Below are positions 55,930 through 59,379 of a DNA stretch of 64,000 nucleotides, in pieces (position 1 is the stretch's first letter; the number at the start of each line of letters is the position of its first letter). The translations under genes and the position numbers were made by a program. Below the pieces are notes generated by a model. The model was given only the letters and a program-made list of their open reading frames with translations. It was not told the origin of the DNA and did not search any database. This DNA is from the human T2T-CHM13v2.0 reference genome, Homo sapiens: NCBI RefSeq assembly GCF_009914755.1, contig NC_060930.1. One strand, 5' to 3'.

Positions 55930-56610
55930 TTTTAAATAAGATTTTTCTTATTGTAAAAGCGATATAAATTCACTGTAGAATTTTGAACACTCAAAAATAA
56001 TAAACACAATAAAATGACATTCTTAACTTTAATCCTTAAATGTAACTAATCTGAATATTTACTATACGCTTTTTATCCATTAATACATATATAGATTAAT
56101 GTGGTGATATAGTGATTCTTACTTGCTTATATATCTATTGCATGTACAATAATAACTATTTTCCAGTATCATATTAATGTGCTGTAAAATGCAAGTTTGA
56201 TGATTGTAGAATATCCAGTAGATGAATATACCACAATTTGTTTCACCAGGCCCCAGTTATGGGGCACTTAAGTTCTTTCCATTTGTAAATGTATAAATAG
56301 CATGGTGATTTGCATTTTTGAAATTAAATCTTCACATGCATTTTTAATTTTTTTCAGGGTAATTGTTAAAGTTTATTGATTTAGTAAAAAGTAATAATAT
56401 TATAGAAATTTTGCTTGTCAAATTTCCCTCCAGAGAAAACCATACTGAGGTATCTTTCTCCCAGTAGCTATGTCAAAAATTAACATTTTTTATTTCAGCA
56501 GCACACCTTCATTGACATTGTTTATTACAAATTGTTTTAATTGCCAGAATTTTTGTTTAAAAGGACATTCTATTGTTTAAACTTGCATTGTTCTGATTAT
56601 TAGAGTTTTC
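55930..56610 (-). mobile_element. L1ME-like 3' fragment
   Basis: gatgaatataccacaatttg...ggggcacttaagttctttccattt...gtcaaatttccctccagaga. Confidence 0.65.
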
Positions 56611-56937
56611 TGGAGTTTGGCCAGCAAAATTAAAATGTATAGTAATAAAGTAATGCTACTGAGTTTAACCTGTTACTTCTGGAAATTTTTCCCATAACAT
56701 TATAGCCATACTATTTTCATAAACATCGTGTAACTATTAAAACCTGTTCTTAATTGTAATGTTTTTATGTTCACACATTGGATACAGAATAATAATATTT
56801 TTTATTTAAAACAATCTTAAATTTTTCAACCACTAGAAATATGAAAGGCATTGTATTTCTGAAAATACAGTTTTCCCAAGTAATAAAAAATTATTTTCAA
56901 TGGACATATCTTAAATCGTACTTGAAACTCTACAAGC

Positions 56938-57043
56938 GGGGGTGGAGCCAAGATGGCCGAATAGGAACAGCTCCAGTCTACAGCTCCCAGCGTGAGTGAC
57001 GCAGAAGACGGGTGATTTCTGCATTTCCTCAAAAAAAAAAAAA
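56938..57043 (+). mobile_element. L1 5'UTR-only retrocopy (first ~93 nt) + poly(A)
   Basis: gggggtggagccaagatggccgaatagg...gatttctgcatttcctc-A13; perfect 14-bp TSD aaactctacaagcg (56925-56938, 57044-57057). Confidence 0.95.
56949..56958 (+). promoter_or_regulatory. YY1 site of the L1 internal promoter
   Basis: caagatggcc at the canonical position near the L1 5' end. Confidence 0.8.
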
Positions 57044-59379
57044 AAACTCTACAAGCGCATAATACATTTCTAAATACTGGTATATACTGGGAGTAATATA
57101 ATACCTTTTAAAACATACCACATATAGCACTACAGAGTTAGTTCTGCTATAATTACTCCTGCCTTCCTACACTGAGTATTACAAAAAAGCTTCACTGGCT
57201 ACGGCAGTGGCTTGATATATTGTTAGTAACATATTCTGACACAGCTCAAAATGTGGATCATTAGGCATAATTTTATAGAAAGCATCGAAATAGGCTTGCA
57301 ATGATATCAGAAAGGAAAACAAAACCGCGATTCTGCCCAACCGCGGTACTGCACTGTTACAGAGCAATTTCTCCTTGGATTGCACACCTGCTTTCTGGCC
57401 CATTAAGTCCTGCTGTCTTTACAAGGAATTGAGGTTGTAATGTCTTTCCCCAATGCATATTTTTATGGGACCATGCATAACAAGTACACATAAAGTACAT
57501 ATGAATGAACATGCTGCCAACCTCATTTTTAATATGTCTGATCTGACTAGAAAAGAAAAACACTTACCTTAGAAAATAAATCTCTTAATTGCTTAAAGCT
57601 CTGTAACAGTTATTTCCTGACATATATTGCAAGAATTCCCTGTAGCTGTGTGGAATCATTATTCTGTTCACTTATATATATATACATTCCTAGAAACATG
57701 ATCTGATATCATTTTTCATAAAGAAGCAGTATTTAGGAATAATGTGCACATCAGATCTATTTTTGTGCACATCAAAATTCCACTGTGCCAAGCTCCTGCA
57801 GTCACCTGTCATTAAAGTAATTCCAGTAAGCTGTATCTCCCCTTTCTCTGCTGTGCACAGACCACTTCTCAACATATTTTCATGGTTTGCAGAATATATC
57901 AAGAGTTAGCTAAGAAATAATTTCAACAGTAGAGTTCCACTGGGAATGTCAATAAGCTAAGGGCATTTTGGCCACACTATCTGCATTTCTGAGTTTTATT
58001 TTAAGATTAAATAAGTTTGAGACAGAAGAAGCACTGATCTGTACCTGATGGAACAATGGTCTTTCATCAGAGACATATGTACATTGAAAAGGTGAGGTGG
58101 TAGTTGCAATGAAATTAATGTAGTTGGGTTCTAGAGTTCTTTGAAATTTAATCTAATCAAGAACCCAAATCTGCAATTTTCGAGACCTTTAAATTTTTTG
58201 ATACGAAGTTTTAAAAGTTAGTGTTATCATACTACTTTTATTATAAATACATATGTCGATTTTTTTTTTTACTATCTTGACTTATTAAGTCAGCTAAAAT
58301 TAAAAGTCAAGTAAAATTGTCCTGGCTGGCTAATTAAGGTGAAAATGGTCAACCCATCTTTCCCATGAAAATATAATAATTATTTATACTGACATTTGAA
58401 AATATTAAGTGACATATATAAAATTATTTTTCTCTCAGTATTTAGAAAATATTGCAAAGGGATAAGTGTATATCAGAAGCCTATTTTTCAGTTATTAGGA
58501 GAAAATGATATCTAATAAAAGGGAATAAATGGCAAATCCAATTTCTGATTTAACTTTGAACAGAACAACTTTTATATATGATTTTGAATTTTTGTTTAAT
58601 AATATGAATTTCAAAGAAATAATCAGAGATATCTTGGGAAATACAGGTGTCATGTTGACCAGAAAATAATCTGAATGTCATTTTTAAAGTCTTATGTATT
58701 TTACTCAGTTTATCCCTTTTCTCGTGTTTTCTATCAATATATTCTCTCCAGATTTTGTGGACTTGCAATTGTTATTATGAGGTGGCAAGGGGGAAAAATG
58801 CAAGCTCTTTTCAAGGACAGAGTCAAGGTACCAAAGGGAAAATCAACCAGAGAAAGAATAACCATCTGTTCTGTTTCCTACCAAAATGTAAAAACATGTT
58901 ACTTCACATCAAAGGAAGCATTAAAAATTATTCTTAGAAAAACTAATACGTCCAACTTCAATAAATACCTATAATATTATTTAATTTATGTTATTTCAGT
59001 ATAGCAGTAGACTTAATTAAATATAGTAAGTTCTTCACATCTCTTCATTGCAATGAACATGTGTAAAGACATTTAGGTCAAGTTTTGAGTGAGAAGAAAA
59101 TAAATTATCTGTGTAGCTCAACCAAAGTGAAGTAACAAAAACAGTCAATGTCTAAGGCTTTTATCACATAATCCTAGTGAGTTTTTAAGTTATATAATAC
59201 CTTGATGAGCATGCTGACTCAGAAAGAATTTTCAAATTGTATCAAGAATGTTTTGTGACATAACTGGGTAGAGTATCTGCCTGTGCATACTATCAAGATT
59301 TTGTCCTGTGTGACAGAATCAAATTTTCTAAAATGTATTTGGTTAAGTGTTGTTTCTAAACGATAAAAATGGAAAGTAA

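What the first reader, a model, noticed from the sequence alone, without database searches (positions are those of the whole stretch)
56925..57057. Promoter-only L1 micro-element: first ~93 nt of the L1 5'UTR fused to poly(A), with a perfect TSD
Seen: a 14-bp TSD (aaactctacaagcg) encloses the extreme L1 5' end (GGGGGTGGAGCCAAGATGGCC...), which stops at ...ctgcatttcctc and runs straight into an A-tract. There is no ORF, no 3'UTR and no AATAAA upstream of the tail, and four CpGs are retained, so it looks young. Established: TPRT copies from the 3' end, so L1 copies normally lose the 5' end. The first ~100 nt hold the YY1-dependent core of the internal Pol II promoter, and the 5'UTR splice donor (ctgag|gtacc) lies only a few nt past where this copy ends, so it is not a standard spliced L1 copy. 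Inference: a short, prematurely terminated promoter-proximal L1 RNA was adenylated non-canonically and mobilised in trans by ORF2p. Internal promoter plus A-tail is a minimal SINE-like design, so this could be one member of an overlooked class, and it places a promoter core next to CpG-bearing unique DNA. Alternatives are a template switch onto an Alu-like ...ctc(A)n end, or near-total deletion of a full-length L1.
Basis: partly seen in the sequence, partly recalled or inferred. Interest (0 to 1): 0.85.

Follow-up and report, generated by a model that had tools for sequence, protein, structure and literature searches.

The report
Lone L1 5'-end retrocopy with poly(A)
A 90-base copy of the very start of a human L1 retrotransposon, joined directly to a poly(A) tail and flanked by a perfect target-site duplication, is real, but it is the only one of its kind found in this genome, so it looks like a rare copying accident and not a new family of mobile elements.

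Summary
A perfect 14-nt direct repeat (56925-56938, 57044-57057) encloses 90 nt of L1 5' end (56939-57028), then TC, then A16. All 39 other genomic matches to the element align only to its positions 1-90, at 98-100% identity. All 29 relatives I read continue past that point towards the 5' splice donor. The element therefore starts at the normal L1 5' end and stops 7 nt before the donor, or 4 nt before it if TC is L1-derived.

It is a single target-primed reverse transcription (TPRT) insertion of "L1 leader + poly(A)". It is built like the snRNA + poly(A) + target-site duplication (TSD) processed pseudogenes.

The "overlooked class" idea is not supported. Twelve tiled searches of T2T-CHM13 for an L1 5' end followed by A10, covering breakpoints about 20-128, returned this locus only. 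A published assay of a 5'UTR that keeps nt 1-97 shows a weak promoter.

"Young" cannot be read from the CpGs. The sequence cannot separate a short leader RNA, an RT jump on a full-length L1 RNA, and a later deletion. Primate orthologues would separate them. It is a real but minor curiosity.

The parts
56925..56938 (+). 5' copy of the target-site duplication, AAACTCTACAAGCG
   Evidence: 14 of 14 identical to 57044-57057; the neighbouring bases differ, so the repeat is at most 14 nt.
56939..57028 (+). L1 (L1PA-type) 5' terminus, 90 nt. It begins in the G-run where full-length copies begin and ends at ...CATTTCC.
   Evidence: 39 other genomic matches at 98-100% identity, all ending at query position 90; 29 of 29 relatives start in a comparable G-run and continue beyond this point; the 85-mer 56944-57028 is identical in 8 other L1 copies.
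56949..56958 (+). CAAGATGGCC, the stretch usually named as the YY1 site of the L1 promoter
   Evidence: The sequence is read. The YY1 assignment is recalled from the literature and was not tested here.
57029..57030 (+). TC dinucleotide between the L1 homology and the tail; origin unresolved
   Evidence: no other L1 copy reads ...TTTCCTC; 5 of the 6 identical-85-mer relatives that I hold read ...TTTCCATCTGAG, so TC could be L1 nt 92-93 with A91 missing. It could also be filler or foreign bases.
57031..57046 (+). Uninterrupted A16 tail; the last 3 A overlap the TSD
   Evidence: A run 57031-57046, 16 nt. There is no AATAAA or ATTAAA upstream within the insert.
57044..57057 (+). 3' copy of the target-site duplication
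56915..56934 (-). Inferred first-strand nick site. The bottom strand reads TGTAGAGTTT/CAAGTACGAT if the TSD is taken at its full 14 nt.
   Evidence: There are three T 5' of the nick and a C 3' of it, a partial fit to the L1 endonuclease preference (TTTT/AA, recalled). The exact nick is ambiguous by up to 3 nt because the TSD begins with AAA.

Best explanation
This is one target-primed reverse transcription event by the L1 ORF2 protein. It left a dead-on-arrival retrocopy of the L1 leader, in effect a processed pseudogene of the first 90-93 nt of an L1PA transcript.

My preferred route is that a short 5'-terminal L1 RNA served as template. That RNA began at the normal L1 start site, and its 3' end lay a few nt upstream of the 5' splice donor. 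It could have come from premature termination, or from a trimmed free first exon. [quoted passage not shown] These are the same two models proposed for snRNA + poly(A) + TSD pseudogenes.

Shown: the anatomy, the TPRT hallmarks, the complete 5' end, the breakpoint position and the uniqueness of the element. Inferred: that the short RNA existed, and how it acquired the tail. The copy did not propagate.
For: - Perfect 14-nt TSD at the exact limits of the insert, and an A16 tail. A repeat of 14 nt or more arose in 5 of 2000 shuffles.
- The 5' end lies in the same G-run as 29 of 29 full-length-type relatives, so the cDNA reached the RNA's 5' end.
- L1 homology stops at position 90 in all 39 other genomic matches. 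This is 7 nt before the donor CTGAG|GT seen in relatives, or 4 nt if TC is L1-derived.
- There is no poly(A) signal, so canonical cleavage and polyadenylation is unlikely.
- Precedent for the architecture and for both tail models: Doucet et al. 2015, PMC4476161, passages read (Group II snRNA pseudogenes).
- Precedent for tailing of prematurely terminated RNAs: PMC11609308, passages read.
- The junction is unique in the assembly, so it is not part of a larger duplicated unit.
Against: - No ~90-nt L1 leader RNA was shown to exist. None of my 6 answered literature searches returned a paper describing one or describing such a retrocopy.
- PMC11609308 reports that the shorter prematurely terminated RNAs are mostly U-tailed and the longer ones A-tailed.
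- If leader RNAs were regular templates, several copies with clustered 3' ends would be expected. I found one, and none ending at the donor itself.
- The TC at the junction needs an extra assumption, either a 1-nt deletion or 2 filler bases.
- The nick site fits the endonuclease preference only partly.
Confidence: 0.45

Rival explanations
1. An intramolecular (or intermolecular) reverse-transcriptase jump on a full-length L1 RNA. Reverse transcription started on the poly(A) tail, and at or just past the tail the enzyme jumped to an internal site near nt 90-93 of the 5'UTR. It then copied to the cap, skipping about 6 kb. No short RNA species is needed.
For: - The TPRT hallmarks are the same as above.
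- Template switching by L1 RT is well documented, including landing at internal sites of the acceptor RNA, as in the 3'-truncated U5 and U3 chimeras (passages read; also PMC/bioRxiv 10.1101/2025.02.02.635956, passages read).
- The untidy junction, TC or a 1-nt loss, is what a jump with misalignment or untemplated addition would leave (inference).
- A single copy in the genome fits a rare enzymatic accident.
Against: - Landing in the first 100 nt of a 6-kb RNA has low prior probability if landing is random, although this locus was noticed because of where it landed.
- I did not test whether the expected larger population of poly(A)-joined internal L1 segments exists.
- The position just upstream of the splice donor is unexplained by a random jump.
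Confidence: 0.3
2. Post-insertion deletion. A full-length L1 inserted here by ordinary TPRT, and a later genomic deletion removed everything from about nt 91 to the start of the poly(A) tail, leaving TC as filler.
For: - The TSD, tail and complete 5' end are equally expected for a full-length insertion.
- Internally rearranged L1 5' regions exist in this genome: L082 with a deletion inside the 5'UTR, L079 with the 5' end joined to a short piece I took (from recall of L1 ORF2 sequence, not from a call) to be distal L1, and L063 with an internal duplication.
Against: - The right-hand breakpoint would have to fall exactly at or within a 16-nt tail, not somewhere in about 6 kb of body. That is well under 1 in 100 for a random breakpoint (inference).
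- The tail and both TSD copies are untouched.
Confidence: 0.15
3. A self-propagating, promoter-only L1 micro-element family with a SINE-like design, of which this is one member.
For: The element keeps the 5'-terminal stretch that includes the motif usually called the YY1 site (recalled), and it ends in an A-tail, which ORF2p needs.
Against: - There is 1 such locus in 3.1 Gb. All twelve tiled anchor + A10 searches over breakpoints about 20-128 returned only this one.
- In the 2-mismatch search at the same breakpoint, 44 rows were returned against 27 in the reversed control, and only this locus has the architecture.
- The junction 25-mer is unique.
- A 5'UTR keeping nt 1-97 has about 7-fold activity against about 267-fold for wild type.
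Confidence: 0.02

Closest known systems
Group II processed snRNA pseudogenes (short RNA + A-rich tail + TSD; Doucet et al. 2015, PMC4476161, passages read)
   Same: A short, 5'-complete RNA copy runs directly into an A-tail inside a TSD at an L1-type site. The two candidate routes are the same: an early template switch from an L1 poly(A) tail, or recruitment of an already adenylated small RNA.
   Different: The copied RNA is the leader of L1 itself, a Pol II transcript fragment, and not a stable small nuclear RNA. There is only one copy, whereas the snRNA pseudogenes number in the dozens.
SpIREs, spliced integrated retrotransposed elements (Larson et al. 2018, PMC5860796; passages and section 9 read)
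   Same: They start at the L1 5' end, keep the first ~97 nt and lose downstream 5'UTR. I saw such copies among the relatives: L024 and L030, L026, L080.
   Different: SpIREs join exactly at the donor (after ...CTGAG) to an L1 acceptor, and they keep the L1 body and 3' end. This element breaks 4-7 nt upstream of the donor and has no downstream L1 at all.
U6/L1 and other L1 chimeras made by template switching or RNA ligation (10.1101/2025.02.02.635956, outline and passages read; PMC4476161)
   Same: It is a single TPRT event whose cDNA may combine two templates, flanked by one TSD.
   Different: The 3' partner here would be nothing more than poly(A), plus possibly TC, so a second template cannot be demonstrated.
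Ordinary L1 insertions (5'-truncated or full-length)
   Same: TSD, poly(A) tail and L1 sequence.
   Different: The polarity of loss is reversed. The 5' end is complete, and the whole body and 3'UTR are missing.

Membership tests
L1 ORF2p-mediated (TPRT) insertion | Target-site duplication flanking the insert | tested here: met
   14 of 14 identical, placed at the exact insert limits. A repeat of 14 nt or more arose in 5 of 2000 shuffles.
L1 ORF2p-mediated (TPRT) insertion | 3' poly(A) tail abutting the 3' TSD copy | tested here: met
   A16 at 57031-57046.
L1 ORF2p-mediated (TPRT) insertion | Nick at a T-rich/A endonuclease site (TTTT/AA, recalled) | tested here: inconclusive
   The bottom strand reads ...GAGTTT/CAAG. 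It has three T but C at +1, and the nick position is ambiguous by up to 3 nt.
L1 element copy | Sequence homology to L1 | tested here: met
   90 nt at 98-100% identity to 39 other genomic L1 5' ends. The 85-mer is identical in 8 copies.
L1 element copy | Retains the 3' end (3'UTR) from which TPRT starts, with loss, if any, at the 5' end | tested here: not met
   Nothing lies between nt 90 (+TC) and the tail.
SpIRE | Junction exactly at the 5'UTR splice donor (after ...CTGAG), joined to an L1 splice acceptor | tested here: not met
   The break comes after ...TTTCC(TC). Relatives read A[A/T]CTGAG|GT beyond it. No L1 sequence follows.
Group II-type processed small-RNA pseudogene | 5'-complete short RNA copy + A-tail + TSD | tested here: met
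   The definition is taken from passages read.
Group II-type processed small-RNA pseudogene | A discrete cellular RNA species of that length exists | not testable with these tools
   No RNA data are available here. The 6 answered literature searches returned no paper describing one.
SINE-like non-autonomous family | Multiple dispersed copies sharing the architecture and diagnostic bases | tested here: not met
   There is 1 locus in T2T-CHM13 across breakpoints about 20-128.
SINE-like non-autonomous family | Internal promoter sufficient for transcription of new copies | not tested
   Published evidence only: a 5'UTR keeping nt 1-97 gives about 7-fold against about 267-fold. The 90-nt piece itself was not assayed.

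The most novel reading that the evidence does not exclude
The element is a genomic fossil of a discrete capped L1 leader RNA of about 90-97 nt. This could be a prematurely terminated transcript, or the free first exon released at the 5' splice donor and trimmed by a few nt. Either it was A-tailed or it was reached from a poly(A) tail, and ORF2p then copied it. That would show that L1's own abortive or splicing-intermediate RNAs can enter the retrotransposition pathway. If so, other haplotypes and primate genomes should hold a few more such copies, with 3' ends clustered just upstream of the donor.
Probability: 0.25. Interest if true: 0.5.

Novelty: new variant of a known kind. Interest (0 to 1): 0.3.

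Why it matters
If the template really was a short leader RNA, this locus is a rare natural record of two things. It shows what happens to L1 transcripts that fail near the 5' splice donor, and it shows how loosely ORF2p chooses templates. If it was an RT jump, it is an extreme example of the internal skipping that the L1 enzyme can perform. Either way it is one inert 108-bp insertion (nt 56939-57046, with the last three A shared with the TSD) in AT-rich intergenic DNA. It has no siblings, so it bears on mechanism only and does not affect genome function or the census of mobile families.

Tried and rejected
1. Genome-wide class search. I then tiled 15-16-nt anchors, each followed by N{0,9-11} and A10. 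Matches by breakpoint range:
   - 20-30: 0
   - 31-41: 0
   - 40-50: 0
   - 49-59: 0
   - 57-67: 0
   - 66-76: 0
   - 73-84: 0
   - 79-88: 0
   - 90-100: 1, this locus
   - 98-108: 0
   - 107-117: 0
   - 118-128: 0

   Limits: anchors must match exactly, an unbroken A10 is required, breakpoints beyond about 128 were not scanned, and only this 5'UTR type and this one genome were searched.
2. The 2-mismatch version at breakpoints 90-100 gave 44 rows, against 27 in the reversed control. BLAST of the element against the 30 loci, and against 9 further fetched places, found L1 5' sequence only at this locus and at L063. L063 is an L1 5'UTR with an internal duplication, not a micro-element.
3. An L1 lineage reading ...TTTCCTC, which would explain the TC, is rejected. 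The 3 other places with that 17-mer are not L1.
4. First exon ending at the donor plus A8, with 1 mismatch: 0 matches.
5. All junctions at position 90. 155 places have a non-A base after ...TTTCC, and I saw 118 of them with 19 nt downstream (100 of 137, 18 of 18). Nearly all are point variants of the normal continuation or spliced copies. 37 rows were not shown.
6. RNA structure: folding energy is not unusual (z = -0.77; 40 of 200 shuffles fold as well). Rfam gave 0 matches at E up to 1 in 56500-57500.
7. A bacterial promoter and terminator scan is irrelevant to a human window and is disregarded.
9. Reading age from CpGs is rejected as uninformative.
10. No primate orthologue or second human haplotype could be reached with these tools.

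Full report
**What is there.** The window reads acttg-AAACTCTACAAGCG-[GGGGTGGAGCC...CTGCATTTCC]-TC-A16(overlapping)-AAACTCTACAAGCG-cataat. One search reports a single direct-repeat family in 56700-57300. It is the 14-nt repeat at 56925-56938 and 57044-57057, 14 of 14 identical. The bases on either side of the two copies differ, so 14 nt is the maximum length. A direct repeat of 14 nt or more arose in 5 of 2000 first-order Markov shuffles of the 601-nt region. The observed repeat also sits exactly at the two ends of the foreign sequence. The insert has no AATAAA or ATTAAA, four CpGs and an unbroken A16. The flanks are AT-rich, CpG-poor DNA (GC 0.31-0.32, CpG o/e 0.20-0.22). They are not notable "CpG-bearing" DNA.

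**Identity of the insert.** The assembly that holds the window, T2T-CHM13 at 3.1 Gb, can be searched.
- A search with the 93 nt at 56939-57031 scored 40 of 1492 first-look candidates. Besides the locus itself, all 39 matches align to query positions ending at 90, at 98-100% identity.
- I read 29 of those loci. All 29 begin in a comparable G-run, so this element is complete at the 5' end.
- All 29 continue after ...CATTTCC with A, then A or T, then C. In 28 of 29 this is A[A/T]CTGA, leading to the ...CTGAG|GT donor.
- The L1 homology is therefore 90 nt. It stops 7 nt before the donor, or 4 nt before it if the following TC represents L1 nt 92-93 with A91 missing.
- No L1 copy in the genome reads ...TTTCCTC. 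Of 4 places with that 17-mer, the 3 others are not L1. The TC is unexplained.
- The 85-mer 56944-57028 is identical in 8 other L1 copies. Of the 6 I hold, 5 continue ATCTGAG and 1 continues AACTGAG. All 6 carry A where this element has T at its fifth base.

**Is it a class?** The exact junction 25-mer is unique. I then tiled twelve anchors of 15-16 nt along the leader, each followed by N{0,9-11} and A10.
- Breakpoints 20-30, 31-41, 40-50, 49-59, 57-67, 66-76, 73-84, 79-88, 98-108, 107-117 and 118-128 gave 0 matches.
- Breakpoints 90-100 gave 1 match, this locus.
- Allowing 2 mismatches at 90-100 gave 44 rows, against 27 for the reversed control.
- BLAST of the element against the 30 loci returned, and against the 9 remaining places that I fetched, found L1 5' sequence only here and at L063. 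L063 is an L1 5'UTR with an internal duplication.
- A first exon ending at the donor followed by A8, with 1 mismatch allowed, gave 0 matches.

Within these limits there is exactly one such element. The limits are exact anchors, an intact A-run, breakpoints up to about 128, this 5'UTR type and this one genome.

**What else happens at this nucleotide.** 155 places have a non-A base after ...GATTTCTGCATTTCC. I saw 118 of them with 19 nt downstream (100 of 137, 18 of 18; 37 rows were not shown). Nearly all are point variants of the normal continuation or spliced copies. Three run into poly(T), which is all such places in the genome.
- L077 and L078 are antisense Alu insertions, each with its own TSD.
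- L076 is an antisense L1 3' end.
- Each was inserted into a longer L1 5'UTR after the same ...TTTCC.

The sense strand of the L1 leader therefore appears to be a recurrent endonuclease target at the very nucleotide where this element ends. I searched only at this position, so this is probably ascertainment and I draw no mechanism from it. It is worth a note.

**Age.** Two positions in the element look like decayed CpGs (CCAG, GAGTG). Among the first 100 of 995 genomic L1 5' ends that keep the neighbouring CpGs, the haplotypes are G-C 64, A-C 22, A-T 10 and G-T 4, counted by hand. The A and T states are common and associated with each other, so they may have been inherited from the source. The perfect TSD, pure tail and near-identity to some full-length copies suggest little decay, but 134 nt carry little power. 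Larson et al. 2018 place this 5'UTR and donor type in L1PA1-L1PA6, about 27 My or less (passages read). I could not assign a subfamily or test orthologues.

**Mechanism.** The TSD, the A-tail and a partly fitting nick site (bottom strand ...GAGTTT/CAAG; the consensus TTTT/AA is recalled) mark one TPRT event. The cDNA reached the 5' end of an RNA that began at the L1 start site. What cannot be read from the sequence is how nt 90 came to abut poly(A). Doucet et al. 2015 (passages read) describe the same architecture for snRNAs, namely a short RNA, an A-rich tail and a TSD, and give two models. [quoted passage not shown] The other is recruitment of an already adenylated small RNA. They also report internal landing for U5 and U3 chimeras. 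PMC11609308 (passages read) shows that prematurely terminated, non-adenylated RNAs can be tailed post-transcriptionally and exported, although the shorter ones are mostly uridylated.

I weigh the routes as follows:
- **Short leader RNA as template, A-tailed or reached by an early switch: 0.45.** It explains the complete 5' end, the absence of a poly(A) signal and the position just upstream of the donor.
- **RT jump from the tail to an internal site of a full-length L1 RNA: 0.30.** It needs no new RNA species, and the untidy TC junction fits it.
- **Later deletion of a full-length insertion: 0.15.** It requires the right-hand breakpoint to fall in a 16-nt tail and not somewhere in about 6 kb.
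- **Propagating family: 0.02.**

The RNA's predicted fold is unremarkable (z = -0.77), and Rfam has no match.

**Promoter argument.** Larson et al. 2018 (section 9, read) measured a 5'UTR that keeps nt 1-97 joined to nt 622 onward. It gave about 7-fold over a promoterless vector, against about 267-fold for the intact 5'UTR, and such elements were retrotransposition-defective without an external promoter. The first ~97 nt are thus not a sufficient promoter in that assay. This agrees with the absence of daughter copies. The 90-nt piece itself has not been assayed.

**Comparison and novelty.**
- It works like a Group II processed small-RNA pseudogene, but its source is L1's own leader.
- It is not a SpIRE, because the break is upstream of the donor and no acceptor-side L1 follows.
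- It is not an ordinary L1 copy, because the 3' end is missing and the 5' end is complete.
- It is not demonstrably a two-RNA chimera.

Six answered full-text searches returned no paper describing an L1 5' end fused to poly(A). Subscription-only papers and the supplements of Larson et al. were not seen. I class it as a new variant of a known kind.

**Verdict.** The element is real, well-formed and unusual in its polarity. It is also a single inert copy, and its exact origin needs primate orthologues and RNA 3'-end data. Interest 0.3.

Noticed in passing
L076 (G000:C1:19831447-19831469), L077 (C3:2424284-2424306), L078 (C4:41884005-41884027): Three independent antisense insertions sit in L1 5'UTRs immediately after the same ...CATTTCC where the window's element ends. 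Two are Alu with their own TSDs and one is an L1 3' end, each starting with an 18-20-nt poly(T). This looks like a recurrent endonuclease target on the sense strand of the L1 leader. They are the only three such places in the genome.
   Followed up: partly
L024, L030, L026; L080 = G000:C18:9427900-9429600: Spliced L1 copies occur among the closest relatives. L024 and L030 join ...CTGAG to CTTTGAAGAGA / CCTTGAAGAGA, which is the 97/622 type. L026 joins it to GAACGCAGCTCC, which is in ORF1 and of the 97/976 type. L080 joins it to CAAACGGCATACC further inside the 5'UTR, a junction not among the classes named in the passages of Larson et al. that I read.
   Followed up: no
L079 = G000:C1:245135300-245137000: An old L1 5' end is joined at the donor (...GACTGAG|GGAAATTGATATT...) to about 75 nt that I took, from recall of L1 ORF2 sequence and not from any call, to be distal L1 sequence. 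It then runs into GC-rich non-L1 DNA with no poly(A). This is another very short 5'-end-bearing L1 remnant with a different structure.
   Followed up: no
L063 = G000:C24:20492868-20493302; G000:C12:73550244-73550278: These are L1 5'UTRs with a short internal tandem duplication of the stretch around ...GACGCAGAAGA...GATTTCTGCATTTCC. In both, the leader motif is followed by a second copy of upstream leader sequence.
   Followed up: no
Genome-wide rows: Two CpG sites of the L1 leader are associated with each other (CCRG and GAGYG). Among the first 100 of 995 rows, T occurs in 10 of 32 A-copies but only 4 of 68 G-copies. This fits either subfamily structure or age-correlated decay.
   Followed up: no
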